A DNA stretch of 23,600 nucleotides from an uncultured Victivallales bacterium (GCA_964651145.1 CAZYVR010000044.1:1-23600); one strand, 5' to 3'. Positions 2,751 to 21,262 are shown, counted from the stretch's first letter. A program made the numbers and translations. Notes: generated by a model not told the origin, from the sequence alone.

Positions 2751-3187
2751 TTCAATTTCCTTAAGGTAAGTTGTAATAATTAATTTCTTTTAATTGAATC
2801 AACATCGATATAGACTCCGCCGAACTAGCGCTCAAGGGATTCGTCTATAATATTATTTATTGCATTATTCCATTTTTTTATAGAAACTGCCTTTCATTTT
2901 ATTTTTCCCCATCAACCCTGTAGAAAAGCCAAAATTTTGCCAGACTGGAGTTAAATCCTTGCATTACATTTCCAGGAACATTTTCCGATAAAATAATGGG
3001 ATTTCTAGAATGCCTTTTTGAAATGCCTTGAGTTTTCATAAACCCTGCCTTGACTTGTGTAACATTTTCATTAATCATGAAGATTTAACATGTTTCTATA
3101 TAATAAAGTGCCTTTCAATTAATGTCAAGAAGGCTTTATGGTCTTATGTGCAAATTTCAAAAAAGCTCTTTTTGTGTACATATATTC

Positions 3188-3216
3188 ATTGACAAATGAG
3201 TTGTTTACATGTATTC
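3188..3216 (+). promoter_or_regulatory. Candidate sigma70-like promoter for the LacI-family regulator gene (TTGACA-17 bp-TATTCT)
   Basis: TTGACA at 3188-3193 and TATTCT at 3211-3216 with 17-bp spacing, ~45 bp upstream of the ATG at 3262. This is a pattern match only. Confidence 0.3.
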
Positions 3217-3232
3217 TCCTATATAATGTAAA
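3202..3232. promoter_or_regulatory. Perfect 8-bp inverted repeat GTTTACAT-N15-ATGTAAAC overlapping the putative -10/TSS; candidate operator
   Basis: GTTTACAT (3202-3209) and ATGTAAAC (3225-3232) are exact reverse complements. The core TACATGTAT...TATAATGTA is shared with the tandem motif upstream of the GntR-type regulator (15148-15188). Confidence 0.45.
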
Positions 3233-3261
3233 CTTTTCACACATCGGAGTATTCATTTAAA

Positions 3262-4251
3262 ATGGTCAAAAGAAAATGCGCAAAAAGCACAATAACGGAA
3301 ATAGCCAAAAGGGCTAAGGTTTCAGTCGCGACAGTATCCCGCGCATTCAGTGGGCACCCTTACGTAAAAGATGAATTGCGCGGGAAAATTTTCAAGTTGG
3401 CAAGAGAGCTAGATTACACACCTAAGGCAAGCGGAAGCAGGGAGCAAAGCACGATAGGAGTCATTATAAACGCATCTAAACGCAAAAAGCTTTCCATGGG
3501 GATTTTTGAATCAACCATGCTTAAAGAGCTCATAAATGAAATTTATTACCGCAACCTGAATCTCGAAATTATAACAGAAGTAAATCATTGTGATCTTGAA
3601 AAAAAATTCATAAAGGCGGCAATAATCCTTGGAGAGCACAAAGAAGAAGCGGGGAGTTTTTGCTCAAAGTGGCCAGGGACATCATTTATAACAGTCAATA
3701 ATTATATAGAAGGCTGCTATTTGGTTGCCTCGGACCACAAAGACAGCGCAAGGCAGGCGATAGAATATCTTATATCAAAAGGCCATAAAAAAATAGGCTT
3801 TCTTGGCTCGCTCCTTGAATCCTGGGGCGTAAAACAGCGATTTGAGGGATATAAAGAAGCCCTCGCTGAAAATTCTATAAAATCATCCCGCGATTATGTA
3901 AAATTCACAAATGGTTCAGAAGCGGTTGAATCCATTCTCAAAATAGCAAGATTTTCCCCGTCTGCTATTTTAGTCTGCGGTGAAAATATGTCAGCGCGAG
4001 CTAACTATGCCTTGTATCTTGCGGGGAATAAAGTTCCTGATGATATATCAATAATCACATATGAAGATTCTAATGTTTCAAAATATATATTCCCGCCAAA
4101 CACAACAATGTGCCAGGATTTTGCTCATCTGGCCAGCCTTGCCGTTGACAGAGCCGTTGAAATCATAAATGGCAATCCTAGTGATGATAAGAATATTTTC
4201 ATAAAAGATCAATTAATAGAAAGGGAATCTGTAAAAGATTTGACTTTCTGA
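3262..4251 (+). CDS. LacI-family transcriptional regulator
   Basis: 329-aa ORF. The N-terminal HTH TITEIAKRAKVSVATVSRAFSG is the LacI-type signature. The rest resembles a periplasmic-binding-protein-like sugar-binding domain. GGAG lies 11 nt upstream of the ATG. Confidence 0.85.
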   Translation: MVKRKCAKSTITEIAKRAKVSVATVSRAFSGHPYVKDELRGKIFKLARELDYTPKASGSREQSTIGVIINASKRKKLSMGIFESTMLKELINEIYYRNLNLEIITEVNHCDLEKKFIKAAIILGEHKEEAGSFCSKWPGTSFITVNNYIEGCYLVASDHKDSARQAIEYLISKGHKKIGFLGSLLESWGVKQRFEGYKEALAENSIKSSRDYVKFTNGSEAVESILKIARFSPSAILVCGENMSARANYALYLAGNKVPDDISIITYEDSNVSKYIFPPNTTMCQDFAHLASLAVDRAVEIINGNPSDDKNIFIKDQLIERESVKDLTF

Positions 4252-4412
4252 CAATAACTTAGAAAAAAGGATTTTGCTCACCTGGCCAGCCTTGCCGTTG
4301 AAATCATAAATGGCAATCCTAGTGATGATAAGAATATTTTCATAAAAGATCAATTAATAGAAAGGGAATCTGTAAAAGATTTGACTTTCTGGCAATAACT
4401 TAGAAAAAAAGG
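4117..4412. repeat. Tandem direct duplication (~153 bp + ~141 bp) of the LacI-gene 3' end plus downstream intergenic sequence
   Basis: 4117-4270 (last ~45 codons of the regulator, the stop and 'caataacttagaaaaaagg') is repeated at 4270-4412. The second copy has a 12-bp deletion between two GCCGTTGA micro-repeats. It also carries two substitutions: catctg->cacctg, and TGA->TGG at the former stop. Confidence 0.9.
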
Positions 4413-4420
4413 AGACACCT

Positions 4421-5641
4421 GTGAATAAGTCATCAAAATCATGGAATAAATACAGGCATAGTATTAAATTTCTTGCTCAAGGGAGCTCAACTTTATCAAA
4501 AGCTCCTCAATTTGAAAATATTGAACCAGCTCAAATTGCTTATGGCAAAGGATGCCGTGTATGGGATTTGGATGGCAATGAATATATAGACTATCGCAAT
4601 GGACTTGGTCCCGTCACGTTGGGGTATTGTGTCCCGGAAATAAACGATGCTATTATTGAGCAATTGAATAAAGGGATTGTTTTCGGGCATCCTCATTCAA
4701 TAGAAGGGGAAGCCGCTGAAATGTTGACAGAAGTAATCCCATGCGCAGAGCGGGTGTGCTTTCTGAAAACTGGCGGAGAAGCGATAGCCGCATGCATCAA
4801 GATAGCTAGAGCTGCAACCGGCAGAAGCAAAATAGTCCAGTGCGGATATAATGGATGGTTAAACAACTTAAGCGCCCCAAAGGGCAATATCCCAGCAGGA
4901 ATAGCGAACAGCCAACCTAATAAAGGAGTTCCATCTCAGATAAGCAGCTTACATCGCTCTCTCAGATGGGCAGACTATGAAGAATGGGATGAAGTATTTT
5001 CGCAAGATGGCGAGAACATCGCCGCGGTTGTTATATCTAGCAATTATCTCGAAATGGAAAAAGGGAAAGAATTTTTCCATTTTATCAGGCATTTGACTGA
5101 GAAATACGGGACGCTGATGATAATAGATGAAATCGTGACCGGATTCAGGCTTGCGCTAGGAGGCGCGCATGAATATTTCGATTTTATGCCAGATATGGCT
5201 GTCTTTGCGAAAGGCTTCGCAAATGGGATGCCCGTTTCCGCCTATCTTGGGAAAGGAAATCTTATTGATTTAACTAAGAAGCTTGGAATATCATCCACGT
5301 TTGCGGGCGAAACTTTGTCGCTGGCGGCAATTAAAGCAGTTATTTCATTCTATAAGAAAAATAATGTTATTGAACACCTATGGAAACATGGGGACATGTT
5401 ATGGACTCAGGTCAACAAGATTTTCGAGAAATATAAAATATCCGCTAGCGCAAAAGGCTATAATGTTTGTCCGCAAATGGCATTCGACAATATTTGTAAA
5501 AAAAATGAATTCTTCAAGAATTGCTACCTTAATGGAGTGTCCTTATATGATGTGTCATATGTTAATTTTTCGCACAAAGATAAAGATATAAATGAAACAT
5601 TGCAAAAAATAGAAAAGGCTGCAGAAATAATTAGCGGCTAA
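4421..5641 (+). CDS. Class-III (GSA-aminomutase-like) PLP-dependent aminotransferase
   Basis: 406-aa ORF with a GTG start preceded by AAAGGAG. The N-terminal pattern (AQGSSTLSK...YGKGCRVWDLDGNEYIDY...LGPVTLGY) is typical of HemL-like class-III enzymes. The PLP-lysine region is DMAVFAKGFANGMP. Specificity is unknown. Confidence 0.75.
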   Translation: MNKSSKSWNKYRHSIKFLAQGSSTLSKAPQFENIEPAQIAYGKGCRVWDLDGNEYIDYRNGLGPVTLGYCVPEINDAIIEQLNKGIVFGHPHSIEGEAAEMLTEVIPCAERVCFLKTGGEAIAACIKIARAATGRSKIVQCGYNGWLNNLSAPKGNIPAGIANSQPNKGVPSQISSLHRSLRWADYEEWDEVFSQDGENIAAVVISSNYLEMEKGKEFFHFIRHLTEKYGTLMIIDEIVTGFRLALGGAHEYFDFMPDMAVFAKGFANGMPVSAYLGKGNLIDLTKKLGISSTFAGETLSLAAIKAVISFYKKNNVIEHLWKHGDMLWTQVNKIFEKYKISASAKGYNVCPQMAFDNICKKNEFFKNCYLNGVSLYDVSYVNFSHKDKDINETLQKIEKAAEIISG

Positions 5642-5671
5642 TTTAATAAAATATAAATATAGAGGATGATT

Positions 5672-7963
5672 ATGAAAATGATAAAGCTGTATTTCTTTTG
5701 CTTTGTTTTGTGTTCTGTTTTATTTACAGGATGCTACTCTGAAAAAAGATATAATCACATCAAAGAAAAAGAATATCCAATAATTCAATTTGGCGCTGAC
5801 GGATCGGACGACAAGGATGATACGGAGGCATTCATAAAATTCCTCAAATCGACAGAAGAGCCTTGTGATTTATTCATACCTCCCGGAATTTATAAAATCA
5901 AAAAATTGATCATACCTGAAAAAATACGTCTTAATTTTGCAAATGGAGCTGTTTTTGATGTAGAACAATCCCTTAAAATAAATGGTCCTATTCAAGCGGG
6001 GATACAACAAATTTTTTCAGGCAATGGAAAAATAAATGGAAATATAAAAACAAACAGAGTTTTCCCACAGTGGTTTGGCGCCGCAGGAGACGGGATACAG
6101 GATGACTCTACTGCATTGCAGAACGCGGCGGATCTGGCCTGGAAGTCATCAGGCAAACTTCTGTTTATACCAGAAGGGAAATATCTTTTTGAGAAGGATA
6201 TTATTTTTCGCTGTAATATTGATTCTAACGGAATATTTTTAAAGAAAATTGAAATAGATGATTCAAAAACCGTTTTTTCTTATGCATCATTCTGTCACAG
6301 GCATTATGCTAAACGTTCTAAAATGTTGATTTTTAAAACTGATACCAAAGCTGTCAATTTGTCCCCCAAAGCTTTTTGGGGAATAAAGGAAAATGATTTT
6401 AAAATCCCCAAATTCAAGGGAATAAGCACCGTTGACGGAAAATCAAAAATAAACCTTGAGGAAGGAGCTACAATTAATTTTTTCAGCTCTGATTTTTTCA
6501 CTGCAAGGCAGCATAAACATGGTGATCAAGTTTATTATAAACGTGATATCTGCCAACTGGTCTCTCCGCGTGGAGATGTGTTTCCTGAATTCATGTTTTC
6601 ATTCTTGGCTCCGCCAAAGGCGGAAAAATGGAGCAAATATAAGAAATATAAAAAAGGCAAGTATTGTTCCTGGCAAGGAAATATTTATAAAGCTGTATTG
6701 CCTTCCGGGCCTGCGTCTGTATATAAGAATAAAAATAGATATAAAGGCACTGTGGAGATAGGACCTGTCTGCCCAAGAAAAAGTATGGAAACTTTTTTTA
6801 AGTTTAAATACCCGAATGGGGGGAATGACAAGATTCGTATCTGGAACAAACTTAAAACAATCGTGTCCTATACCCCTCCTCAAAAACCGTTGACTGTCAA
6901 CGGCCTCATTGTTGAAATATATCTTAAGAATTCCGATGGCAAAAGCAAGCGGATATTTGGTTCGGAAACCGTAAAGGTGGAGCGTAGCAACATGATTTTC
7001 AACAACCTTAGAATTTCATGCAAAAGCCGGGAAGCAACCCTGCCTGTTCTCCTGCGCACACTCGAGTGCTTAAACGTCACCTACAATAACTGTTATTTTT
7101 CAGGAGCATCCAATCATGGCTTAGGGTACAATATCGCTAATGCAAGATGTGCTGCAGTAACATATAATAATTGTATATCTGCTAATTGTCGTGATGGGAT
7201 GGGCGGGAAATTTGGAAAAAACATTACGGTAAAAGGAGGTTTTTATAACAGAATAGACGATCATTACGGGAAAAACTATCTTATTAAAGATGTTGTTATT
7301 AATGCGGTTTCAACTTTTATTCCTGGCTACGGAACACCACAGGCAAATCAGGATAAATGGGGATTTAAACCTCATTATGCCTTTGCCTTCAGCGGAGGAA
7401 ACATTAGAATAGAAAATTGCAGGATATATAATTGCGAAGGTGTTTTCTCCGTCAGAACAGATACTGCGGACATGTTTGGCTCTGTAATATTGAAAGATAT
7501 CGATATAATTTCAGACAGGCCTGTCACGCTGTTTTTACATTCAATATCTAAAGATTATTTTGACTATACAGGAAAATTAAGAGTTCCTTCCCAATTACTT
7601 ATAGAAAACATACACATGGAAAAAGATTTTCCATTAAGGATTATGATCAGGAATTTAGAAGCTTATCCATATGGTCGGATTAGTGTGAGAAACTGTCAAT
7701 ATCTTCAGAAGGTCATGCTTATGAATTCCGGGCAGGCTAATTTTACAGAATGTTCATTCAAAAATACAGTTTTTACATGTTCCCCGAAAGAGTTGCTGTT
7801 TTTCAGAAATTGTATTTTTTCAGGAACAACAAAAGGCCTTGAAAAAAAGAATATTGGCATTTCAACCGGCAATATAGATAAAAATGGAACATTGAAATGT
7901 ATTTTAACAGAACAGACGAATGCTCAAAACTCAGAAACAAATCAATCCTCAAAAAAGGAATGA
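5672..7963 (+). CDS. Lipoprotein with right-handed beta-helix / pectate-lyase-superfamily (PF12708-like) domains; putative polysaccharide hydrolase or lyase
   Basis: Signal peptide plus lipobox LFTGC. There are two copies of the pectate-lyase-3/GH55-type N-terminal motif (FGADGSDDKDDTEAF and WFGAAGDGIQDDSTALQNA). Asn/Gly-rich periodic repeats suggest beta-helix coils. The start is ambiguous (ATGs at 5666, 5672 or 5678); I chose 5672 for RBS spacing after AGAGG. Confidence 0.65.
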   Translation: MKMIKLYFFCFVLCSVLFTGCYSEKRYNHIKEKEYPIIQFGADGSDDKDDTEAFIKFLKSTEEPCDLFIPPGIYKIKKLIIPEKIRLNFANGAVFDVEQSLKINGPIQAGIQQIFSGNGKINGNIKTNRVFPQWFGAAGDGIQDDSTALQNAADLAWKSSGKLLFIPEGKYLFEKDIIFRCNIDSNGIFLKKIEIDDSKTVFSYASFCHRHYAKRSKMLIFKTDTKAVNLSPKAFWGIKENDFKIPKFKGISTVDGKSKINLEEGATINFFSSDFFTARQHKHGDQVYYKRDICQLVSPRGDVFPEFMFSFLAPPKAEKWSKYKKYKKGKYCSWQGNIYKAVLPSGPASVYKNKNRYKGTVEIGPVCPRKSMETFFKFKYPNGGNDKIRIWNKLKTIVSYTPPQKPLTVNGLIVEIYLKNSDGKSKRIFGSETVKVERSNMIFNNLRISCKSREATLPVLLRTLECLNVTYNNCYFSGASNHGLGYNIANARCAAVTYNNCISANCRDGMGGKFGKNITVKGGFYNRIDDHYGKNYLIKDVVINAVSTFIPGYGTPQANQDKWGFKPHYAFAFSGGNIRIENCRIYNCEGVFSVRTDTADMFGSVILKDIDIISDRPVTLFLHSISKDYFDYTGKLRVPSQLLIENIHMEKDFPLRIMIRNLEAYPYGRISVRNCQYLQKVMLMNSGQANFTECSFKNTVFTCSPKELLFFRNCIFSGTTKGLEKKNIGISTGNIDKNGTLKCILTEQTNAQNSETNQSSKKE

Positions 7964-8192
7964 TTCCTAAACTTTTCTATTTTTAAAAAAACATTGAAAA
8001 TATCCCTGAAAGGATCTGGAAATTAAAATGGGGTTATTCGGAACTTGCTGGGAATCTAAAATTTTCAGAAAAAAATATTGAAGGTGAATAATAAAAAAAG
8101 CAATCTCTTTGCATTGCTACATTAAATATATTTATATAGGCTTTCAAACCTATTATAATCACTATTTTTCAAAGAAATTGAAAAGGTTTCAT

Positions 8193-8933
8193 ATGATAAT
8201 TGATATTCATACACATAATATATCGAAAAGTTTAGATTCTCTTTTGGAGGCGGCAGAACGCAATGGAATAAGTAAAATAGTTTTACTTGGAGCTGTTCTA
8301 AAGTATGGCTCTTATCCAAATGAAACGCAGATTAGAGAAATAAACAACCTTACAGGAGAGAATGTCAAAAAATACCCAAAAAAATGCGTAGGTTTCTGTT
8401 TTCTTAATCCCGCACACAATTCTGAATTCATCATCAGTGAAATAGACCATTGCATACAGGATTTCGGTTTTAAGGGAGTAAAGCTTGAAGTTTCTGTAAA
8501 CTGCCGCGACGAAAGGCTTTATCCCATCATGGGGAAACTGGAAGAATATGATGTTCCGTTGCTTCATCATTCATGGTACAAAGCTGGCGGTAACCTTGCG
8601 GATGAATCGAATCCGGCAGACATAGCCTTTTTGGGTGCGAAGTTTCCAAATGTGAAAATAATAATGGCACATCTGGCAGGATGCGGTGTAAGGGGAATAC
8701 TTGACATCGCTCCCTTTGAAAATATTTACATCGACACTTCAGGCGGGCAGCCACATTCCGGTCTTGTGGAATTCGCATTGGAAAAGCTTGGGGCTGAGAG
8801 AATTATTTACGGATCAGATGCCCCTTACAGGGATTTCTCTGTTCAGCTAGGCAGAATAGCGGGAGCAGAAATAAGCGACGAAGCAAAAGAAATGATTTTA
8901 GGCAAGAACGCGGAAAGGCTTTTGGCAATATGA
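8193..8933 (+). CDS. Amidohydrolase-2 (PF04909-like) TIM-barrel metal-dependent hydrolase
   Basis: N-terminal MIIDIHTH (HxH metal ligands). Later His/Asp ligand candidates are LLHHSW, IMAHLAG and IIYGSDAPY. The ATG at 8193 is preceded by AAAAGG. The longer ORF from 8109 has an implausible N-terminus. Confidence 0.7.
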   Translation: MIIDIHTHNISKSLDSLLEAAERNGISKIVLLGAVLKYGSYPNETQIREINNLTGENVKKYPKKCVGFCFLNPAHNSEFIISEIDHCIQDFGFKGVKLEVSVNCRDERLYPIMGKLEEYDVPLLHHSWYKAGGNLADESNPADIAFLGAKFPNVKIIMAHLAGCGVRGILDIAPFENIYIDTSGGQPHSGLVEFALEKLGAERIIYGSDAPYRDFSVQLGRIAGAEISDEAKEMILGKNAERLLAI

Positions 8934-9679
8934 AATTCTTCGATGCAAATGTTCTTTGGGGAAACTGGCAGTTTCAGGGAGTATTCATGCAACCTCCTGA
9001 AAAGCTCGAAAGCGCCTTAACTATAAGAAACATAAATCGCGCTCTCATCAGAATGCCTGATGCCGCAGTATGTCCTGATATTGAAAAATGCAACTCAATG
9101 CTTTTTGAAGCATTCAATAAAAATAAACAATTAATTCCAGTACCGACAATTAATCCGAAACAAGCAGACTGGCAAATACAGATAGAAAAATTTAAATCAC
9201 CCTTCGTTAATCTTTATCCTGGATATCATGGATATAGTCTCCAAAGTAAAGAAGCCTGTGAACTTGCAGAGGTGATTTGCGCCAAAGGTAAAACAATACT
9301 AATAACAATTCGCCTGGAAGATCCAAGGGCATCAAACCAGTATTGCCGTTTCCCGGAAGTCCCTGTTGAAGATGTGAAAAATTTCATTGAAAAATTTCCA
9401 ATGTTGAAAGTAATTGCTCTTAACATTTCTTTTGCAGAAATGAAAAAATTAGCCCAGTATAAATATAAGAATTTTTATATGGATATCGCATACGCTGAAA
9501 TTCTCAACACATTGGAACGCATCATTAGTCTTATTCCCCATGAACAAGTTCTTTTCGGTTCAAATACTCCTCTTTTTTATACTGAAGCCGCAAGTGCCAA
9601 GATTACAAAATCAGTTTGTAGAGAAGAAGTTAAAGAAAATATAGCTTATAATAATTTATCCAGAATTATAACATTATAA
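8930..9679 (+). CDS. Degenerate amidohydrolase-2 paralog (metal ligands replaced; probable pseudoenzyme), translationally coupled to the upstream amidohydrolase
   Basis: ATGA start/stop overlap at 8930-8933. Segment-wise similarity to the upstream protein: FPMLKVIALNISFAE~FPNVKIIMAHLAG, KNFYMDIAY~ENIYIDTSG, EQVLFGSNTPLFY~ERIIYGSDAPY. The metal ligands are changed: HxH->FDAN, H->L/N, D->N. Confidence 0.6.
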   Translation: MKFFDANVLWGNWQFQGVFMQPPEKLESALTIRNINRALIRMPDAAVCPDIEKCNSMLFEAFNKNKQLIPVPTINPKQADWQIQIEKFKSPFVNLYPGYHGYSLQSKEACELAEVICAKGKTILITIRLEDPRASNQYCRFPEVPVEDVKNFIEKFPMLKVIALNISFAEMKKLAQYKYKNFYMDIAYAEILNTLERIISLIPHEQVLFGSNTPLFYTEAASAKITKSVCREEVKENIAYNNLSRIITL

Positions 9680-9762
9680 TTCGCCCAAAAACCTGGATAA
9701 TTGAATAAGATGTAAAATTTCCTTAAATAAGACTAAATCGATGCAGCAAAGAAAGGAGATAT

Positions 9763-10278
9763 TCACCTTTCTTTTCTTCGGGGAATCTCCAATTTTGTAA
9801 TTCCCCAATGTTTATTCTCTTTTTTTCCTAGGAAAATACATTTTATTTTGAAAAATTTTTCTTTGCAATAAATGAAGCTACCCTTTATTTCATTGTCTTT
9901 TAATTTTTCCCATTTCAAATCTTTTATATCTTTTAATTGGGCTAAGGACTCTCCTCTTTTCATGATATTTATACCTATGGGTAAAAGAGGAGTATTTCCC
10001 GCCAAAGAGTCAATTTCATATTCTTTACGATCTTGGGGACTCATCCCTAAGATAAAAGAAGAGAGATTGTGGTCTCCCAATTCTGATTTTAAGTATTTCA
10101 GAATATTTGGCCTGAGTTATGATTCCATTTTTTTTGCCACTTCTTTTATTTTTTGAGGCGTCGCGGAAAATTGAATGACTTTGGCTATAGCATCTTCTAT
10201 TTCCTTTTTTTCCACGGCAAATGAATTAAATTCTAGAAACAATAAAAATGAGAGACAAGCAATAAAACTCTTTTTCAT
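9763..10278 (-). pseudogene. Small secreted protein gene interrupted by a single in-frame TAA (possible pseudogene, or two small ORFs)
   Basis: The ATG at 10278 is preceded by AAGGA and followed by a signal-peptide-like MKKSFIACLSFLLFLEFNSFA. A 53-codon ORF ends at TAA (10117-10119). The same frame continues for 118 more codons to a TGA at 9763-9765, with no RBS and only a TTG start. The region is AT-rich. Confidence 0.35.
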
Positions 10279-10492
10279 AATAAACATTCCTTTTAAATCT
10301 TGAGAGCTCCGAGTTCTTTGCTGTCAAAAGCCGATCTCTTTGTCTGTTAACTTAGCCAATTCCAATGAATAATCAATCGGCACCGGAGCCAGCACAAATA
10401 AATCTTTATATATAAAAGAATTATATTATTACACTTTTTTTTAAATATTAGCTAAGAAATCTAACCCCATATGTGGAAATGCAAGAGTTTTT

Positions 10493-10582
10493 TGCGCTGT
10501 CGCGGCAACTAGATTCAGCTTGTTTTCGCTTCTCGTTGCAACAAGCTGCAAGCTTTTCAATATGTCGTCTGCGCTGTCGCGG
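10493..10582. repeat. 13-bp direct repeats TGCGCTGTCGCGG (x2) flanking a 9-bp-stem hairpin CAGCTTGTT..AACAAGCTG
   Basis: Direct repeats at 10493-10505 and 10570-10582. The hairpin stems are 10516-10524 and 10541-10549, followed by CAAGCTTTTCAA. This is non-coding sequence upstream of thiG. Confidence 0.5.
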
Positions 10583-10635
10583 AATTTTTATATGCCAATG
10601 GCTTTCGCCGTTGGCTACCAGCGATTCAACAGTTG

Positions 10636-10744
10636 GATGGCGTCCGAAAAAAGTCCGGCTTTTATTCCGGCTGCGCCGTTTTTTTTAGTTTTAAGACTTT
10701 TGGCGGAGCCATCTCGCTCAGCGACAGTCACGCTAAAAGTAGAG
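10636..10744. repeat. Copy B of the intergenic terminator-like repeat family
   Basis: See copy A. GATGGCGTCCG...AAGTCCGG..TTTTATTCCGG..GCCGTTTTTTTTAGTTTTAAGACTTTTGGCGGAGCCATCTCGC. The 3' half is also similar to copy C (15056-15108). Confidence 0.6.
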
Positions 10745-10815
10745 TTAGCCAGCGCAATGCGGGTTGAATTTTACCAGCCCAATGCTAAGTTTAAATTTTA
10801 ATTTTTCAACATTTT

Positions 10816-11601
10816 ATGGCAAGAACTATTATGAATAAACTAAAAATAGCAGGCTCTGAATTAAAAAGCAGGCTTTTTCTGGGCACTGGCAAATTTTCGT
10901 CGTCCAAAGCCTTGAAAAACGCCATTGAATCATCCGGAACTGAACTGGTGACGGTGGCTCTGAGACGCGTGGAGTTAAACAACGAACAAGATGAGATATT
11001 ATCGGCAATAGACCGCGCCAAAACGCAAATAATGCTGAATACCAGCGGTGCCAGAAATGCGGAAGAGGCTATCAGAATCGCCGATTTCGGGAAAGCGGGC
11101 GGATATAAATGGATAAAGCTGGAAATTCACCCGGATCCTAATTATTTGCTTCCAGACCCCATCGAAACACTCATTGCCGCAGAAAAGCTCGTCCAAAAAG
11201 GCTTCATCGTATTGCCGTATATAAACGCGGACCCCGTGTTGGCCAAAAGACTTGAAGACGTTGGTGTCCATGCGGTAATGCCGCTCGGAGCCCCCATAGG
11301 AAGCAACCGCGGCCTGGAAACAAAGGCCATGCTTAGAATAATAATAGAGCAGGCGACTGTGCCGATAGTTGTCGACGCCGGCCTAGGATTGCCGTCTCAC
11401 GCGGCGGAAGCAATAGAAATGGGAGCGGACGCCGTTCTTGTCAACACTGCAATAGCCGCGGCCGGGAATCCGGCTGAAATGGCAAAAGCTTTTGCAATGG
11501 CGGTGGAAGCAGCCGAGCTGGCAATAAAAGCCGGTCCAGCCGCAATATCAGCAAAAGCGTCAGCCACATCCCCCATGGGCATTTTTGACAATGCAGTTTA
11601 A
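10816..11601 (+). CDS. thiG: Thiazole synthase ThiG
   Basis: Near-colinear match to the ThiG hallmark blocks: [83 protein letters not shown] and [33 protein letters not shown]. The start could be 10816 or 10831. No obvious RBS. Confidence 0.85.
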
Positions 11602-15027: not shown

Positions 15028-15068
15028 GGGCGCGCCTTGTTCTTTTCAAGGCGCGCCCGTTTTTTTAT
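15028..15068 (+). terminator. Rho-independent terminator for the NifU-like/GGGtGRT operon
   Basis: 12-bp perfect GC-rich stem GGGCGCGCCTTG / CAAGGCGCGCCC with a 7-nt loop, followed by TTTTTTTATTTTT. Confidence 0.85.
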
Positions 15069-15108: not shown

Positions 15109-15147
15109 AATTATGGATTTTTTTTTTTTGCAAAAGGACTTTACTTT

Positions 15148-15188
15148 TACATGTATATAATGTACTATAGCTACATGTATATAATGTA
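15148..15188. promoter_or_regulatory. Two tandem copies (24-bp period) of the near-palindrome TACATGTATATAATGTA upstream of the GntR-type regulator; candidate operator/promoter
   Basis: Exact 17-mer at 15148-15164 and 15172-15188. Each has TACAT/ATGTA inverted arms and an embedded TATAAT. The same half-sites occur in the LacI-gene promoter (3202-3232). Confidence 0.5.
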
Positions 15189-15210
15189 TTAACCGCTCTT
15201 GGGGATTTTT

Positions 15211-16287
15211 ATGCAAGCGACTATGCCGGAATATATGAAGGTAAGGGCATACCTTTACAAGCTGATAATGAGTTCCGACAGAGAATCTCTCCAAATTCCT
15301 CCTGAGAACGAGCTGTGCCGCCTCTTTGATGTCAGTAGGGTTACTGTTCGCGGAGCAATCAAAGGTCTGGTCAAGGACAAATTTCTGATTCCGCGCCGTG
15401 GCCTCGGCACTTTTATAAACCCGGAAACACTCAATCGCAAAACGCTGCAAATGTCTACAATCGGGGTGACTAAAGGCTACGGGAATCATGTATCCAATAC
15501 ATATGACACAGGCATACTTGAAAGCATCATTCAAAGCGGATTGAATTTTGAGCCTGTGTATCTTCCTGATTCAGGCAAGCCGGATACTCTTTTAGAAATA
15601 ATTAGAAGCAGTTTAAGTGGGATCATATGGGAGAACTCGAGTGTCGATTCTTCTTTTGAAAGCTATATTGACGCTCTTTCAAAAAGTGGAATCCCTGCGC
15701 TTTTGGTGGAGGAGGAAAAGCCTCTGGGCGCAAATGATTATATACTTTCAACCCGCGTCCAAAGAGGACGAGTCATTGCTGATTACATGTATTCCAAAGG
15801 ACACAAGAGAGTTTTATTTATTCATAATGACGATTCTTATGACGCGCATTTCAACCCATCTTCGACCTACGGCGGTTATTGTCAGCGCATGACTGAATTA
15901 TGCGGCGATGAGTGGGGGGCTCTCGAAAATAACATTGTCTCAGCTCAAGACTTTAATCGCAAACTTAAAGCCATCAATTCATTTACAGCTGTTTATTCAG
16001 GCAACTATCTGGTTCCTTTTGCAACTGATGAGCTGGCTTCGGCAGGAATATCCGTGCCGGATGATTTGTCGTATCTTGTGTATGAGGAGTCAAGCCCTTT
16101 CTTCTTTAACGGCCTTCAACCTGACTTTATAGATAAAAAAGAGCCGCTTAAAAAAGCTGTCTTTGAATGGCTGAGTCTTAGAGTTTCTAAAGAGAGAAAA
16201 AAATCGGATATCTTTTGCAGAAATATCGAAGTAAAACCTGTTCCAGGCGAAACAGTAAAAGATTTGAATGGAGGGAAAAATGATTAA
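15211..16287 (+). CDS. GntR-family HTH regulator fused to a LacI/PBP-like sugar-binding domain
   Basis: The N-terminal [38 protein letters not shown] is a GntR winged-helix signature. The C-terminal ~270 aa resembles a periplasmic-binding-protein-type effector domain. An alternative TTG start is at 15199. Confidence 0.7.
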
Positions 16288-17029
16288 TAAAAATAAAAGA
16301 TGTTTTAAGAAATTTACACTCATTGAATTGCTCGTTGTAATTGCCATCATAGCAATCCTGGCGAGCATGCTGCTGCCCGCCTTAAACAAAGCGCGCGAGA
16401 CAGGAAAAAGAATCGCCTGTCAGTCAAATGAAAAGCAATTGGGGCTGGCGTTTCAGATGTATCTGGGTTCGTGGGATGGCTGGTGGTTTGATCCAACCTG
16501 CTCTGATGATGACTTAAAAAAATGGCCGAAAATTCTCATTGAGGAAGGATCCGTAAAACAAGGCAGGCATCCAGTTGACTTTGACCTGCATTGCCCTAGC
16601 CGCCTTTCCCCGGGGCCAGACCCTTACAATTGGGACACTCTTGAGCATGATAATTTTACTGATTACGCTTTGTGCGCCACCAATTACTGGTCAGGAGGAG
16701 GTTTAAAAGGCGTTCATTCTGATTACAGCGGATGCAAAGCCAATCAAATAAATAACCCATCTAATTTTATAGTCCTCACTGAACGTTGGGATAAAAATCC
16801 AAAGACAATCAACAGCACGCTGGTGCGTGATCGAAGATACTGGCCAGGCGGCGCCAATGACACCTTTCTCCATCCATGGATGCATGACAAAAGCAGCAAT
16901 TATTTGTTTGCTGACGGTCACGTGGAGTCTATTTTGGCAAAGCAATTGAGATTGGAAAGGTTTATGCTGGGAACGAATCAAGGATATTATGACGCTAATA
17001 AAGATTTTCAGCCAACTTGTCCATGGTAA
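16280..17029 (+). CDS. Prepilin-type N-terminal cleavage/methylation domain protein with C-terminal H-X9-DG (DUF1559-like) motif
   Basis: [26 protein letters not shown] is the class-III signal/methylation motif. The C-terminal [21 protein letters not shown] contains H-X9-DG. The GGAGGG RBS overlaps the last 8 bp of the GntR gene. Confidence 0.8.
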
Positions 17030-17079
17030 ACAACTAAGATTATGCAAAATAACAATAACAGAACATCAGGAGTTTTTTT

Positions 17080-20000
17080 ATGAGGAAGAGTTGTTACTTG
17101 GCTTTGGCCGCAACGGTATTGACATCGTGCACAATTTTTGATAAGGCTACAGAGAATATTCCGCCAGTCAAAGTGGATAATTCCATTGGCAAAAGAATGA
17201 TAGAAAGACCTAAGTCACCTAGGGTGTTTAATGGCGATTTTGATCTGGGAACAGCCGGCTGGGCATTGAAATATTATGTTAACGCAAAGGGAGCATTTAA
17301 AGACAATATTCCTCAGTTGACCACAGTCCCAACGCCTGAAGGAAAAGGCTCTTGCTTGAAAGCCGCATCTATTTCCGGCGCGCATCTTTATTGGCTTGCG
17401 GGACGTGAAGTTTACCTGAAAAAAGGAGCCAAAGTTGACCTAAGCTTTAGAGCCAAAATAAAGAAATTTCCAGGCTGCGCGGATATAAAAGACTTTTTTA
17501 TAGACTTCAGGAATTTCAACAAACATCATCATGGAATGAGCACGGCTGAAAGATATTGGATTACTGGTGTTAGGTTAAAAAAAGTTTCTGAAAAATGGAA
17601 AACAGCCAGCAAGATTTTGACCATCCCAAGGGATGGCTATTATTTCTTTCGCTTTGTAATTCAGCCCAAAGACAAAAGCAAGCCGTTCCCAGATATCTAT
17701 ATTGATTCTGTAAAACTAACTCCTCTCAATGACAAAGCCAAATCTGCTGGAATCATTCCGCAAATTGCAATTTATGAGAATAAAAACATTCCGGCATATG
17801 GAATAGAAGAAAAAATCAACTATGAGGTCAAAGCGAAATTTTTCGATTCATCTAAGAAAGTTAAAAAAGTTTCAATGGATATAGTTGACGACCAGACTTT
17901 GGAGCCTGTGTTAAGCAGGGAGGTTGAGCTCGTCCGCAAAGGAAATGGCATATACGAAGGCACATGCAGTTTTAAGCCCAACCGCTACGGAAGCTATTCC
18001 ACGCGTGTTCGCAATGATAAAAATTCTGCGCTTGATTGGTTTGGCGGTGATTTCAGCGTTATGCATCCTATTCTTAAGCATGATTCAAATTCCATAGCAA
18101 AAGGGATTGGCATAAACGGAGAAGCGCATGCGCCTGGAAAATTGACGAGCAAAAAATTTCATTTTTATGCAACCTCAGGAACGCTCAAGCGTTATTTTGA
18201 TGTATTGCGTGTAGCTGGCATTGGAAATGTTCGCTCCTGGAATTTTAGATGGAAATTTGTTGAGCCGGAAAAGGGCAAATTTGACTTTTCTCAAACAGAT
18301 ATGATAGTGCGCGAGCACAAGAAGCGCGGCATTGACTTGATCGGCACGCTTGGCTTGGATTTCACCAAACGGAAAGCCATAAAAAGAAAACGAAATATTC
18401 CTGACTGGGTTTTGCCTTTATGCAAAATGCATAAAGTGAGCAAAGCACACAGCATGGAAGCCTTTGTCCCTCCATTCGATTTGTGGGAAAATTACTGCAA
18501 GGCTTTGATGGGGCATTACAAAAACGACATTAAAGTATGGGAAGTTTTCAACGAGCCTAATGGATGGATGACTCCGAAAAATTATTTGGAGTATGTTAAA
18601 GCCGCGCGCAGAGCCGCAGACTCTGTGTCGCCAGACATAAAAATCATTGGGCCATGTCCTACTGGAGATTTTGCGGCTGACCGCTTTGCCGGATGGTCAA
18701 AAGAATTCCTAGCGCTTGGCGGAGAAAAATACATAGACGGCTTTGCCTATCATCCCTATGGAGCTTCAAATGACTTTCAAAATGGGAAATTTTTTGAGGC
18801 AACCGCAACTATTGACTCAATCCGCTCATGGCTGAAAAATAAGTCTTTGCCTCTATACAACACAGAGTGCTATCACTTTCCAAACTCCCTGCTTTTGCGA
18901 ACAACGCAGGGAGATGCATCCACTTTGTTGCGCCATTACCTGATAACTTTGGGCAAAGGCGTAAAAAGCAGCGCGTCTATTGCGGCTCAGCAAATTTTTA
19001 AATTCAGATTGAATCCTCACATTTGCTTGAATATGACTCACAATATGGAATCGGTTCCCGGTCCGATAGCCGCCGCTTTAAACAACCTGGCATTCCAGTT
19101 GAAAGACATGACAAAGACTGAGTCTCTAAAACTTAACAAGTTTATCAACTGCTATGTTTTTTCCGGCGCAAAAGATGAAGGAGCTCTTGCCGTCCTTTGG
19201 GATTTGCGTCCGAACGGCAACCAGTGGACCTCCAAGGCGAGCGCAAGCAATCTGCGCTTTCTGGACATGTGGGGCAATCAAATAAATGCAGACGGCAAAG
19301 GCATTCACTTAGGGCTTAATCCTGTTTATGCTTCCGGCAAGAAAAGTGAAATTGAAAATTACTTGCAGAAATCAAAATTTCAGTTGTCTGCTCCTGTGAA
19401 AATAACAGGGCGTTTTTTCAAGAACGACCTTTATCTCAACGCTAAAAACATGTCGGGCATGTGCTTTGCGCCAGAGGTAGAATTCACTTCTGTTAAAGAA
19501 CTGAATTTGCCCAAATCTGCGCAGTTTGCTTTTGCGAACAATCCAGACTGTTCCGTTTTTTTGCCGGGCGCTGCAAAGGGAACCGCAACTTCTGCGGGCG
19601 CAACGTTTGATGTAATAGTCAAAAACGAAAAAATAGGTTCGGACAAAATAAAATTGCTCCCAAAGAATCCGGCTTATGATCTGCCGTTTGCAGGAGCCAA
19701 GCCGCTGGAGCTGACGCTTCCGGGAGGCTCAATAGCAAAGCTTGTTGCCCAAAAAGATTCTCTGTCAATCACTGTGACAGTCAAAGATAAAAATATAGTG
19801 TCCCCAAAAAAGCATAAGCCCTGGAGTGGCGATGCGGTGGAAGTGTTTGTGGACACTGCTCCGTTTGCAAGTCTTGAGAGAAATCTCATACATGGCGGAG
19901 AAGGCGCGTTGCCTGTGCGTCAGTATATAATCCCGGCAAAACCGAACGCTGGAGAAAAGCAGTTCTGGACCAGCAACAAAAGTCCTGAGTCCCCAACTGT

Positions 20001-20772
20001 CAAAACACAAAAGACATCGGCTGGGTACAAAGTTAACATTCAGATTCCATGGAAAGCCATCAAGCCATCCGGCAATCGCTATGGAATATACGGCATTGAT
20101 ATTGAAGTCGACCATGTTAAGGCTATTGGCGGAAAAAATATCAAAGAAACGCTAAGCGGCAAGCCTGGGCAGTCATACAAAATTCGTCTCCACTATCCGC
20201 TGTTCAGCGTTCCTGAGCAGGCTGAGCTTTATTCAGGCTTTGACGCGCTGGGCGCGGAAAAACTTGTTAATGGATCATTTGAGAAAAAAAAAGAAAAGGA
20301 AAACGAGCCGAAAGGTTGGATGAACAGATGGGATCGCAAAAAAAAAGTGTATGACTATGGGGATTTTGGTTATAACGGGACAAAGGGCGTGACTGTAAAA
20401 CTTGATACGCCGTCAATAAAGCATGTTCAGGGATGGCCTCAAAAAATCAAATGCAATCCAGACGGGAAAACCAATCTGTTGATTGAAGGCTTCGTAAAAG
20501 CGGAAAATATTAAAAAGGCAGAGGGAGAAAAAAGAAGAGCTGGCCTGCGTTTTTTCTGCCATTTTTATAATGATGTCAAAAAGAAACACATGGATAATAT
20601 AGGCATTGGCGTAAACGAAAGCATTACAGGCTCTTTTGGATGGAAAAAAATCCAATGCGTCATTCCTGTCCCCAGAGGCGCTACATCCTGTCAGCTTTCA
20701 TGCGGTTTGAGCCAAGGGGTCACTGGCGCTGTATGGTTCGATGACGTTCATATAAAAACAATAAGCAAATAG
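17080..20772 (+). CDS. Large multidomain glycoside-hydrolase lipoprotein (GH clan-A catalytic domain flanked by CBM-like beta-sandwich domains)
   Basis: 1230 aa. Lipoprotein signal with lipobox LTSC. The clan GH-A acid/base motif is VWEVFNEPNGW. The nucleophile candidate is LYNTECY. The N-terminal region (VFNGDFDLGTAGW) and C-terminal region (LVNGSFE...GW) look CBM4/9/22-like. The DAVEVFVDTAPF segment looks CBM9-like. AGGAG RBS. Confidence 0.7.
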   Translation: MRKSCYLALAATVLTSCTIFDKATENIPPVKVDNSIGKRMIERPKSPRVFNGDFDLGTAGWALKYYVNAKGAFKDNIPQLTTVPTPEGKGSCLKAASISGAHLYWLAGREVYLKKGAKVDLSFRAKIKKFPGCADIKDFFIDFRNFNKHHHGMSTAERYWITGVRLKKVSEKWKTASKILTIPRDGYYFFRFVIQPKDKSKPFPDIYIDSVKLTPLNDKAKSAGIIPQIAIYENKNIPAYGIEEKINYEVKAKFFDSSKKVKKVSMDIVDDQTLEPVLSREVELVRKGNGIYEGTCSFKPNRYGSYSTRVRNDKNSALDWFGGDFSVMHPILKHDSNSIAKGIGINGEAHAPGKLTSKKFHFYATSGTLKRYFDVLRVAGIGNVRSWNFRWKFVEPEKGKFDFSQTDMIVREHKKRGIDLIGTLGLDFTKRKAIKRKRNIPDWVLPLCKMHKVSKAHSMEAFVPPFDLWENYCKALMGHYKNDIKVWEVFNEPNGWMTPKNYLEYVKAARRAADSVSPDIKIIGPCPTGDFAADRFAGWSKEFLALGGEKYIDGFAYHPYGASNDFQNGKFFEATATIDSIRSWLKNKSLPLYNTECYHFPNSLLLRTTQGDASTLLRHYLITLGKGVKSSASIAAQQIFKFRLNPHICLNMTHNMESVPGPIAAALNNLAFQLKDMTKTESLKLNKFINCYVFSGAKDEGALAVLWDLRPNGNQWTSKASASNLRFLDMWGNQINADGKGIHLGLNPVYASGKKSEIENYLQKSKFQLSAPVKITGRFFKNDLYLNAKNMSGMCFAPEVEFTSVKELNLPKSAQFAFANNPDCSVFLPGAAKGTATSAGATFDVIVKNEKIGSDKIKLLPKNPAYDLPFAGAKPLELTLPGGSIAKLVAQKDSLSITVTVKDKNIVSPKKHKPWSGDAVEVFVDTAPFASLERNLIHGGEGALPVRQYIIPAKPNAGEKQFWTSNKSPESPTVKTQKTSAGYKVNIQIPWKAIKPSGNRYGIYGIDIEVDHVKAIGGKNIKETLSGKPGQSYKIRLHYPLFSVPEQAELYSGFDALGAEKLVNGSFEKKKEKENEPKGWMNRWDRKKKVYDYGDFGYNGTKGVTVKLDTPSIKHVQGWPQKIKCNPDGKTNLLIEGFVKAENIKKAEGEKRRAGLRFFCHFYNDVKKKHMDNIGIGVNESITGSFGWKKIQCVIPVPRGATSCQLSCGLSQGVTGAVWFDDVHIKTISK

Positions 20773-20788
20773 CGAAAATTGCTGAATT

Positions 20789-21262
20789 CTATTTTTCCAG
20801 AAGAAGCGCCGCCATTGCTGTGATGCCTTCGCCCCTGCCACAGAAGCCAAGCTGTTCTGTGGTGGTGGCTTTTACTGACACATTGCCGTATTCGCAATCA
20901 AAGACTCGCGCCAGGTTTTCGCGCATTTCAGCGACATGAGGAGCTATTTTCGGAGCTTGCGCTATTATGGTCACGTCAAGGTTTACAAGTTGCCAGGCGG
21001 TGAATTCCGGCGAATCAAGAATTTGTTTAAGAAGCGTCATGCTGTCGGCATCTTTAAGCTTTGGGTCTGTGTCGGGGAACCATTGCCCTATGTCGCCCAG
21101 AGCAAGCGCTCCCAGAAGCGCGTCCATCACTGCATGAACCGCCACATCGGCGTCGCTATGGCCAATGAGTCCTTTGTCATGTGGCAATTTTACTCCGCAA
21201 AGCGTAATCGGCCCTTCGCCGCCCAGTTTGTGAACATCTATTCCTTGTCCTATGCGCAACAT
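20789..21262 (-). CDS. ispF: 2-C-methyl-D-erythritol 2,4-cyclodiphosphate synthase
   Basis: 157 aa, colinear with E. coli IspF: [67 protein letters not shown] and [18 protein letters not shown]. Confidence 0.92.

What the first reader, a model, noticed from the sequence alone, without database searches (positions are those of the whole stretch)
3202..3232. The same palindromic half-sites (TACATGTAT / TATAATGTA) precede both regulator genes in the window
Upstream of the LacI-type gene, GTTTACAT and ATGTAAAC form a perfect inverted repeat. The repeat encloses TACATGTAT...TATAATGTA and overlaps the predicted -10. Upstream of the GntR-type gene the 17-mer TACATGTATATAATGTA occurs twice in tandem, at 15148-15164 and 15172-15188. 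Sharing of this nearly identical A/T-rich palindrome by two different regulators 12 kb apart suggests a common operator bound by one of them or by a third factor. A conserved promoter architecture peculiar to this lineage (TTTACA-like -35 plus TATAATG -10) is an alternative.
Basis: seen in the sequence. Interest (0 to 1): 0.55.

Follow-up and report, generated by a model that had tools for sequence, protein, structure and literature searches.

The report
Repressor binding sites in two promoters
The repeated 17-base motif is the binding site through which a sugar-responsive repressor of an uncultured Lentisphaerae bacterium most likely shuts off its own operon, an ordinary arrangement conserved in its relatives. 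The look-alike in front of the second regulator gene is a split, atypical copy of uncertain function.

Summary
The exact 17-mer TACATGTATATAATGTA lies at 15148-15164 and 15172-15188. Upstream of the LacI gene the same motif appears split by 8 bases (3206-3230), inside the inverted repeat GTTTACAT/ATGTAAAC (3203-3210 / 3226-3233, one base off the reported coordinates).

About 15 distinct loci from other Lentisphaerae/Victivallaceae carry relatives of the GntR-type gene (36-69% identity). They share one architecture: a -35 box (TTGACA-like), a 17-nt spacer filled by operator O1 (ACATGT-N-T-NNN-ATGTAT), a -10 box fused to the end of O1, then a second operator O2, usually 24 bp after O1. So the tandem 17-mers are most likely the autoregulatory operators of this regulator, which has a GntR N-terminus and a LacI-type C-terminus like AraR. 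They are not a lineage-specific -35/-10. The TATAAT inside the 17-mer lies in the variable spacer of the operator.

The LacI-upstream copy does not fit the invariant TGT-N6-TGTA geometry. Its two halves flank the LacI -10 box (TATTCT). It could be a non-canonical cross-regulation site or a recent remnant; this is unresolved. It does not resemble a LacI-type operator. Overall this is a new member of a known kind, of modest interest.

The parts
15028..15067 (+). Intrinsic terminator of the upstream gene (GGGtGRT family). It isolates the regulator operon, which therefore needs its own promoter.
   Evidence: 12-pair G+C-rich hairpin followed by a T run.
15140..15145 (+). -35 hexamer TTTACT of the regulator-operon promoter.
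   Evidence: It aligns with TTGACA/TTGACT/TTTACT in 14 related loci, always 17 nt before the -10.
15148..15164 (+). Operator O1 (TACATGTATATAATGTA). It fills the -35/-10 spacer, and its last bases overlap the -10.
   Evidence: Exact 17-mer. It scores 22.2 bits with a matrix trained only on other loci, against a shuffle maximum of 18.9. Same position in relatives.
15163..15168 (+). -10 hexamer TACTAT.
   Evidence: It aligns with TATTAT/TATACT/TATAAT in relatives. Inferred; no transcript data.
15172..15188 (+). Operator O2, identical to O1 and 24 bp downstream. It covers the expected transcription start.
   Evidence: Exact 17-mer, 25.1 bits. The 24-bp O1-O2 period recurs in L003, L009, L010, L011, L015, L057 and L058.
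15211..16287 (+). Gene for the AraR-like chimeric repressor: GntR winged-helix N-terminus and LacI-type sugar-binding C-terminus. The ATG at 15211 is the likely start; the TTG at 15199 is an alternative.
   Evidence: Pfam GntR. PDB matches to GntR-family N-terminal domains, including AraR, and to LacI-family sugar-binding domains at residues 125-293. Homologs of 31-69% identity in Lentisphaerae.
16268..20772 (+). Likely co-transcribed targets: a pseudopilin-like protein (N-methyl/DUF1559) at 16268-17029 and a 1230-aa glycoside hydrolase with CBM9 at 17080-20772.
   Evidence: Pfam. The order regulator, pseudopilin, hydrolase is conserved in L004/L183 and L057.
3189..3194 (+). -35 hexamer TTGACA of the LacI-gene promoter.
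   Evidence: Consensus scan: TTGACA, 17 nt, TATTCT, 10 of 12 matches.
3204..3214 (+). Half-motif a (TTTACATGTAT), identical to the 5' part of O1 with its flank. Its ATG|TAT junction runs into the -10, in the same register as the 3' end of O1 in canonical promoters.
3212..3217 (+). -10 hexamer TATTCT, lying between the two half-motifs.
   Evidence: register table. Inferred.
3220..3230 (+). Half-motif b (TATATAATGTA), identical to the 3' part of the 17-mer. It sits at the expected transcription start.
3203..3233 (.). Inverted repeat GTTTACAT-N15-ATGTAAAC enclosing both half-motifs.
   Evidence: pair I4, 100% complementary.
3262..4251 (+). LacI-family regulator gene. It is followed by aminotransferase, GH28-related/pectate-lyase-like, amidohydrolase and unknown genes, up to 9679.
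   Evidence: Pfam. No homolog above 29% identity in the protein database.

Best explanation
The two tandem 17-mers are operators O1 and O2 of the adjacent regulator, a chimeric repressor with a GntR winged-helix N-terminus and a LacI-type sugar-binding C-terminus, as in AraR. O1 fills the spacer between the -35 (TTTACT) and the -10 (TACTAT) and overlaps the -10. O2 covers the transcription start. Without its sugar effector the repressor occupies both sites, probably as two cooperating dimers. It then blocks RNA polymerase, repressing its own gene together with the downstream pseudopilin-like gene and the large glycoside hydrolase gene. Binding of a breakdown product of the substrate polysaccharide would release it. 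Each operator reads as a direct repeat, ATGTWT-N3-ATGTAT (core TGT-N6-TGTA). The conserved guanine in each half is probably contacted by Arg43, which aligns with the guanine-reading Arg41 of AraR. The element upstream of the LacI gene is the same 17-mer split by 8 nt, so that its halves flank the LacI -10. It is either a weak, non-canonical site that lets the same repressor dampen the LacI operon, or a recent non-functional derivative. Shown here: the sequences, their conservation, their position relative to conserved promoter hexamers, and the domain make-up of the protein. Inferred: which protein binds, repression, the effector, cooperativity, and any role of the LacI copy.
For: (1) Co-occurrence: relatives of the regulator at 36-69% identity, from about 15 distinct metagenome or MAG loci, carry the motif directly upstream. 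These are L003-L005, L007-L015, L057, L058, L091 and L103. L091 and L103 were retrieved by the DNA pattern alone, and in both the pair lies just upstream of a homolog.
(2) Fixed promoter register: -35, 17 nt containing O1, -10, then O2.
(3) In L006 the regulator's own upstream lacks sites, but the same promoter with O1 and O2 sits in front of the next gene. The sites therefore mark targets of the regulator, not just its gene.
(4) Specificity: a matrix built without the window scores the window sites at 25.1 and 22.2 bits. The maximum in 200 shuffles is 18.9. In 279 kb of related loci all 32 hits of at least 17 bits lie at these promoters.
(5) The variable spacer inside the operator co-varies between O1 and O2 of one locus but differs between loci, as expected for sites read by one locus-specific protein.
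(6) Protein: GntR domain, LacI-type C-terminal domain, and AraR DNA-contact residues conserved (E32, R43, T45, R47, G64).
(7) Precedent: AraR autoregulates and uses paired operators cooperatively, its N-terminal domains do not touch each other, and it tolerates 6 or 8 bases between core motifs (PMC3592433). Some GntR-family proteins bind direct repeats, for example FarR with TGTATTAWTT (PMC4494728).
(8) For the LacI copy: the two 11-nt pieces are exact, including positions that vary between genomes. The pairing is absent from 100 shuffles. The pieces straddle the -10 and the start site, where a repressor would act.
Against: There is no binding or transcript data; the promoter hexamers and start sites are predictions. 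The operator is not the 16-bp palindrome of B. subtilis AraR, so the binding geometry (direct repeat versus the short ACAT/ATGT inverted arms) is uncertain. Against a function for the LacI copy: the 9-bp half-site period is invariant in all 25 promoter-proximal sites listed, and in the further tandem sites, whereas the period here is 17 bp. The copy scores below 9 bits. No second example of a split site was found in related loci. Orthologous GH28-like operons in relatives are headed by AraC-type or unrelated LacI regulators and have no such sites.
Confidence: 0.85

Rival explanations
1. One repressor, the GntR-type protein, genuinely controls both promoters. The split copy upstream of the LacI gene would then be a working operator whose halves clamp the -10, giving a cascade from the GntR-type regulator to the LacI operon.
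For: Exact 11-nt identities in both halves, including genome-specific spacer bases. No such pair in 100 shuffles. Both halves overlap the core promoter and start site. The N-terminal domains of AraR bind independently and accept different spacings (PMC3592433). This protein family has a non-conserved stretch of about 15 residues between the two domains (consensus).
Against: Intra-operator spacing is invariant in every canonical site, while here it is 8 bp longer, about three quarters of a helical turn. The matrix score is below 9 bits. There is no comparative support, because the LacI gene has no ortholog and orthologous operons elsewhere use other regulators.
Confidence: 0.4
2. The LacI-upstream element is a non-functional or decaying derivative of the operator. 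It could have arisen by copying or recombination of operator or promoter sequence, followed by an 8-nt insertion that created the TATTCT -10. Only the tandem pair at 15148-15188 would be functional.
For: Deleting 8 nt (TCTCCTAT) restores the exact 17-mer. The canonical geometry is broken. The LacI operon region has a lower G+C content (0.33-0.39) than the rest of the window (0.42-0.51). The LacI protein is an orphan, which suggests recent acquisition or rearrangement. Regulators of this operon are swapped between relatives.
Against: Both halves are intact to the base and sit exactly on the -10 and start site. The flanks extend the symmetry to 8 nt (GTTTACAT/ATGTAAAC), which the canonical operators do not show. 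Similarity between the two promoters does not extend beyond the half-motifs.
Confidence: 0.4
3. The LacI protein itself, or a third symmetric factor, binds the inverted repeat GTTTACAT-N15-ATGTAAAC. The resemblance to the GntR operator would then reflect similar half-site tastes.
For: A perfect 8-nt inverted repeat overlaps the promoter. Most local LacI-family regulators are autoregulated (72%, PMC4052901). No other candidate LacI operator was found in this promoter.
Against: LacI-family sites are contiguous palindromes of 16-22 nt, CG-centred in 1173 of 1303 cases (PMC4052901). A clear example in this lineage is CTTATTATAGCGCTATAATAAG next to the LacI gene of L183. Arms 23 bp apart centre to centre do not fit one LacI dimer. 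The tandem sites at the GntR gene follow the GntR-type gene in relatives that lack this LacI.
Confidence: 0.1
4. The motif is a lineage-specific promoter element (TTTACA -35 plus TATAATG -10) and not a regulator site.
For: It is A/T-rich, contains TATAAT, and lies 25-60 nt before start codons.
Against: It is found at only 2 promoters of the window. TTTACA and TATAAT are only 12 nt apart at the LacI gene. In relatives the TATAAT position is variable while separate -35 and -10 hexamers are conserved around it. Other genes in 279 kb of related loci lack it.
Confidence: 0.03

Closest known systems
AraR of Bacillus subtilis (AraR subfamily of the GntR family)
   Same: Chimeric build: a GntR winged-helix N-terminus plus a LacI/GalR-type sugar-binding C-terminus. 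The guanine-reading Arg and its supporting residues are conserved (E32/R43/T45/R47/G64 against E30/R41/T43/R45/G62). Both are autoregulated, with operators over the core promoter and start site and with paired operators. Both are linked to polysaccharide-degradation genes (PMC3592433).
   Different: The proteins are only distantly related: 38% identity over the N-terminal domain, and no direct sequence match of the C-terminal domain to AraR in the PDB search. The operator is ACATGT-N-T-NNN-ATGTAT, which reads as a direct repeat with a 9-bp period, not the palindrome ATTTGTACGTACAAAT. The paired operators are 19-28 bp apart (mostly 24), against 42-43 bp in AraR. H42 and Q61 of AraR are replaced by Val and Arg. 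The effector is unknown.
GntR-family regulators that bind direct repeats (FarR/MngR TGTATTAWTT, NagQ TGGTATT, NanR TGGTATAW)
   Same: Same type of DNA-binding domain. They bind several head-to-tail copies of a short TGTAT- or TGGTAT-like unit (PMC4494728). The unit here is (A)TGTAT.
   Different: Those proteins belong to the HutC or FadR subfamilies and have different effector domains. Their repeat period and copy number differ. Whether the protein here really reads the site as a direct repeat is untested.
LacI-family operators
   Same: The element upstream of the LacI gene is an inverted repeat overlapping a promoter, and LacI-family regulators are usually autoregulated (PMC4052901).
   Different: LacI operators are contiguous palindromes of 16-22 nt, mostly CG-centred (PMC4052901; example in L183). 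Here 8-nt arms are separated by 15 nt, and the sequence matches the operator of the GntR-type regulator.

Membership tests
AraR subfamily of GntR-family regulators (protein at 15211-16287) | N-terminal GntR-type winged helix-turn-helix domain | tested here: met
   Pfam PF00392, E = 1.8e-8. PDB matches to the N-terminal domains of PdhR, DasR, NagR and AraR.
AraR subfamily of GntR-family regulators (protein at 15211-16287) | C-terminal effector domain homologous to LacI/GalR sugar-binding domains | tested here: met
   Residues 125-293 match LacI-family sugar-binding structures 4rk0 and 4rk1. 26% identity over 122 aa to the window's LacI protein. Several homologs carry PF13377.
AraR subfamily of GntR-family regulators (protein at 15211-16287) | Conserved DNA-contact residues of AraR (E30, R41, T43, R45, G62) | tested here: met
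   They align with E32, R43, T45, R47 and G64, all invariant in 26 homologs. H42 and Q61 are replaced by V44 and R63.
AraR regulon (orthology to B. subtilis AraR) | 16-bp palindromic operator ATTTGTACGTACAAAT | tested here: not met
   The consensus here is ACATGT-N-T-NNN-ATGTAT, with no TGTAC/GTACA palindrome.
AraR regulon (orthology to B. subtilis AraR) | L-arabinose as effector and arabinose-utilisation genes as targets | not testable with these tools
   The neighbours are a pseudopilin-like protein and a GH39/GH10-like hydrolase with CBM9. There are no ara genes in the window.
Autoregulatory operator of the adjacent regulator (tandem 17-mers) | The motif is conserved upstream of orthologous and paralogous regulator genes in other genomes | tested here: met
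   About 15 distinct loci.
Autoregulatory operator of the adjacent regulator (tandem 17-mers) | Overlap with the core promoter or transcription start | tested here: inconclusive
   O1 lies between conserved -35-like and -10-like hexamers and O2 follows the -10. The hexamers are predictions and no 5' ends are mapped.
Autoregulatory operator of the adjacent regulator (tandem 17-mers) | Physical binding by the regulator and relief by an effector | not testable with these tools
   This needs gel-shift, footprinting or reporter assays.
Canonical operator of this regulator family (element upstream of the LacI gene, 3203-3233) | Core geometry TGT-N6-TGTA (9-bp half-site period) | tested here: not met
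   The halves are 17 bp apart. The matrix score is below 9 bits, against 22-25 bits for O1 and O2.
LacI-family operator (element upstream of the LacI gene, 3203-3233) | Contiguous palindrome of 16-22 nt, usually with a central CG | tested here: not met
   The 8-nt arms are separated by 15 nt. No CG-centred palindrome was found in 2751-3275. Criterion taken from PMC4052901.

The most novel reading that the evidence does not exclude
The split operator is functional. The AraR-like repressor would bind two half-sites 17 bp apart that bracket the -10 of the LacI promoter, using independently tethered DNA-binding domains. This would wire an orphan, possibly acquired, LacI-controlled polysaccharide operon beneath the resident regulator. 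It would show that this family can read its half-sites at two very different spacings (9 and 17 bp), giving two strengths of repression.
Probability: 0.3. Interest if true: 0.5.

Novelty: new member of a known kind. Interest (0 to 1): 0.3.

Why it matters
Lentisphaerae and Victivallaceae are largely uncultured polysaccharide degraders, and I found no paper describing their transcriptional regulation (one library search). This analysis gives a concrete, testable operator motif and promoter layout for a widespread family of AraR-like regulators. Those regulators sit in front of cassettes made of a pseudopilin-like gene and a giant glycoside hydrolase gene. The motif can be used to predict regulons in these genomes. 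It also supplies the first usable -35/-10 consensus for the group, TTGAC(A/T)-17-TAT(T/A)(A/C)T. The biology itself, an autorepressed sugar-responsive repressor with paired operators over its promoter, is textbook.

Tried and rejected
(1) Genome-wide scan. The tandem pattern ATGTNTNNNWTGTA-N(4-16)-ATGTNTNNNWTGTA was run against genome contigs. Only L091 and L103 were relevant.

(2) Orthologs of the LacI gene for footprinting its promoter. There are none above 29% identity. The LacI genes in L181 and L183 are unrelated.

(3) Conservation of cross-regulation through the orthologous GH28-like operon. In relatives it is headed by AraC-type or unrelated LacI regulators and has no matrix hits.

(4) Population variation in the LacI promoter. 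Two other assemblies (L001, L002) are 100% identical over it, so they are uninformative.

(5) Extra sites in the window. The hit at 7781(-), AACATGTAAAAACTGTATT, scores 13.9 bits, which is within shuffle noise (95th percentile of the shuffle maximum 14.8). The TACATGTAT at 15784 is a coding coincidence.

(6) Split half-site pairs in related loci: none found.

(7) A LacI-type palindrome in the LacI promoter: none found.

(8) HutC-type GT-N-TA-N-AC reading of GTATATAA. Rejected because those positions vary in relatives.

(9) An RNA element. Rfam finds nothing in the window.

(10) Reading the LacI promoter as a canonical O1 with a 1-bp deletion (TTGTTT-AC-ATGTAT, period 8). This is possible on paper but has no support.

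Full report
**Observation.**
The window reads gttGTTTACATGTATtctccTATATAATGTAAACtt at 3200-3235. It reads ttTACATGTATATAATGTActatagcTACATGTATATAATGTAtt at 15146-15190.

- The 17-mer is exact at 15148-15164 and 15172-15188. Matches with up to 3 mismatches are expected 0.02 times per window.
- The inverted repeat upstream of the LacI gene is GTTTACAT 3203-3210 / ATGTAAAC 3226-3233, one base off the reported coordinates.
- The pattern TACATGTAT-N(0-30)-ATAATGTA occurs only at these two promoters and in none of 100 shuffles.
- The LacI copy equals the 17-mer with 8 nt inserted: TACATGTAT-TCTCC-TATATAATGTA.

**Context.**
Pfam annotation gives the following gene order.

| Coordinates | Strand | Gene |
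|---|---|---|
| 1047-2750 | - | GH3 |
| 3262-4251 | + | LacI-type regulator |
| 4421-5641 | + | aminotransferase |
| 5666-7963 | + | GH28-related / pectate-lyase-like |
| 8109-8933 | + | amidohydrolase |
| 8930-9679 | + | unknown |
| 10816-11601 | + | ThiG |
| 11638-13023 | + | GH1 |
| 14000-14995 | + | GGGtGRT protein |
| 15211-16287 | + | GntR-type regulator |
| 16268-17029 | + | N-methyl/DUF1559 pseudopilin-like protein |
| 17080-20772 | + | 1230-aa hydrolase with CBM9 |
| 20789-21262 | - | IspF |

- A strong terminator lies at about 15028-15067, between the GGGtGRT gene and the regulator gene.
- Homolog names place the contig in Lentisphaerae.
- The window appears to be a whole 23.6-kb MAG contig.

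**What the 17-mer is.**
Homologs of the GntR-type protein at 31-69% identity exist in many Lentisphaerae and Victivallaceae assemblies. I fetched their loci from metagenomes, by exact-protein look-up and, independently, by DNA pattern.

Upstream of the regulator in L003-L005, L007-L015, L057, L058, L091 and L103 the same motif is present. Put in register, the promoters read as follows:
- a -35 box, TTGAC(A/T) or TTTACT;
- a 17-nt spacer that contains operator O1;
- a -10 box, TAT(T/A)(A/C)T or TACTAT, fused to the 3' ATG of O1;
- a few bases, then operator O2.

In the window these elements are TTTACT 15140-15145, O1 15148-15164, TACTAT 15163-15168 and O2 15172-15188.

The conserved positions are ACATGT-N-T-NNN-ATGTAT. 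T7, G8, T16, G17 and T18 are invariant in 19 non-redundant sites. The site is best described as a direct repeat ATGTWT-N3-ATGTAT with core TGT-N6-TGTA.

The intra-operator period of 9 bp never varies. The O1-to-O2 distance is 24 bp in most loci but 19, 22 or 28 bp in others. The spacer bases differ between loci but agree between O1 and O2 of one locus. Examples are ATCCGA/ATCCAT in L010, GCTTAG/GTTTAG in L015, and TTTATA in L007, L011 and L057.

A matrix trained without the window scores the window sites at 25.1 and 22.2 bits, against a maximum of 18.9 in 200 shuffles. In 279 kb of related loci all 32 hits of at least 17 bits lie at these promoters.

In L006 the regulator's own upstream lacks the sites. 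There the same promoter with O1 and O2 precedes the next gene. The gene order regulator, pseudopilin-like, giant hydrolase is conserved in L004/L183 and L057.

**The protein.**
- It has a GntR winged-helix domain.
- Residues 125-293 match LacI-family sugar-binding structures and weakly match the window's own LacI protein. This is the chimeric architecture that defines the AraR subfamily (PMC4494728).
- Aligned with the N-terminal domain of AraR, the residues that hold and make the guanine contact are kept: E30, R41, T43, R45 and G62 of AraR align with E32, R43, T45, R47 and G64. These are invariant in 26 homologs. H42 and Q61 of AraR are replaced by V44 and R63.
- The AraR sequence I used came from memory; its residue numbers agree with those given in PMC3592433.
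- In AraR the two N-terminal domains do not touch. They read one T/A-N-G core each, accept 6 or 8 bases between cores, and paired operators act cooperatively (PMC3592433).
- Direct-repeat sites are known for other GntR proteins, for example FarR with TGTATTAWTT (PMC4494728).

**Mechanism.**
The following is inferred, not shown. The repressor occupies O1 and O2 over the -35/-10 spacer, the -10 and the start site. It thereby shuts off its own operon until a sugar effector releases it. This is standard promoter occlusion by an autoregulated local repressor.

**The LacI-upstream copy.**
The best promoter there is TTGACA 3189-3194, 17 nt, TATTCT 3212-3217. Half a (TTTACATGTAT, 3204-3214) runs into this -10 with the same ATG|TAT junction as the 3' end of O1. 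Half b (TATATAATGTA, 3220-3230) covers the expected start.

Points for a function:
- Both halves are identical to the base with the operator, including positions that vary between genomes.
- The pairing does not occur by chance in shuffles.
- Both halves sit on the core promoter.

Points against a function:
- The halves are 17 bp apart, not the invariant 9 bp, and the matrix score is below 9 bits.
- No other split site was found.
- The LacI protein has no ortholog for comparison.
- Orthologous GH28-like operons in relatives are headed by AraC-type or unrelated LacI regulators and have no such sites.

The LacI operon has a lower G+C content than the rest of the window. This fits a rearranged or acquired segment.

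Binding by the LacI protein itself is unlikely. LacI-family sites are contiguous, mostly CG-centred palindromes (PMC4052901). L183 shows a textbook one next to its own LacI gene (CTTATTATAGCGCTATAATAAG), whereas none is present in 2751-3275.

I therefore leave the LacI copy open. A non-canonical cross-regulation site and a recent non-functional derivative each get about 0.4. A site for LacI or a third factor gets about 0.1.

- The 'operator' reading is right for the tandem pair, and the GntR-type protein is the likely binder.
- The 'shared operator' is possible but unproven.
- The 'peculiar promoter' alternative is rejected, because the internal TATAAT is variable spacer in relatives and distinct -35 and -10 hexamers are conserved.

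**Limits.**
- There are no binding or transcript data.
- The genome-wide scan failed for technical reasons, so the regulon in this organism is unknown.
- The literature check was a single library search. It returned no paper on transcriptional regulation in Lentisphaerae.

**Novelty.**
This is a new member of a known kind: an AraR-like autorepressor with paired promoter-embedded operators. Its motif and half-site geometry differ from those of AraR. Interest is modest.

Noticed in passing
window 4153-4271 and 4294-4413: A stretch of about 120 nt covering the last ~33 codons of the LacI gene, its stop codon and 20 nt beyond is repeated 141 nt downstream at 98% identity. The second copy ends just before the aminotransferase start at 4421. 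The repeat is also present in two independent assemblies (L001, L002), so it is probably real and not an assembly artefact.
   Followed up: partly
window 3001-11000 versus the rest of the window: The LacI operon and the following segment have 33-39% G+C, against 42-51% elsewhere. The LacI protein has no homolog above 29% identity, although the GH28-like gene next to it has 56% orthologs in Lentisphaerae. This suggests a regulator swap or a mosaic origin.
   Followed up: partly
L183 3207-3228 (Lentisphaerae bacterium GWF2_45_14, MHBG01000104.1): A perfect 22-bp CG-centred palindrome, CTTATTATAGCGCTATAATAAG, lies just upstream of an unrelated LacI-type gene. That gene is divergent from the ortholog of the GntR-type regulator operon. 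It looks like a classical LacI operator.
   Followed up: no
L181 1251-1303: A 15-nt inverted repeat, CTTGACACATGTAGC / GCTACATGTGTAAAG, flanks a TATATAAT box between a divergent LacI gene and a pseudopilin/GH28-like operon. It looks like two back-to-back promoters sharing one -10 region, with ACATGT-containing sites next to each -35.
   Followed up: partly
L179, L180, L181, L182 versus window 3262-9679: The orthologous cassette of amidohydrolase, aminotransferase and GH28-like genes is headed by an AraC-type regulator in three relatives, by an unrelated LacI in a fourth, and by the orphan LacI here. The regulator has been replaced repeatedly in front of the same enzymes.
   Followed up: partly
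window 3061-3094, and the 59-aa ORF at about 2899-3078 on the - strand: A 34-nt imperfect palindrome (AACAT...ATGTT, 75% complementary) ends in the 8-bp palindrome AACATGTT. It lies at the predicted start region of the divergent promoter (TTGACA 3128-3123, 17 nt, TATTAT 3105-3100) that would drive a small ORF and the GH3 gene. One extra ACATGT in this intergenic region is not statistically remarkable.
   Followed up: partly
window 15784-15792 and L057 8691-8699: Inside the regulator gene, the codons for a conserved (I)ADYMYSKGH motif spell TACATGTAT, the first half of the operator. In L057 the same place reads CACATGTTT, which matches that locus's own operator half. This is probably a coincidence of Tyr/Phe codons, but the parallel is curious.
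   Followed up: partly
loci L008, L009, L010, L015 (all from metagenome Ga0209467): Four different regulators of this family from one sample each carry operators with a different internal spacer. If they are paralogs in one genome, the spacer may be what keeps their regulons apart.
   Followed up: no
window 9680-10815: A stretch of about 1.1 kb with low G+C content and no confident gene lies upstream of thiG. No TPP riboswitch or other Rfam family was detected there.
   Followed up: partly
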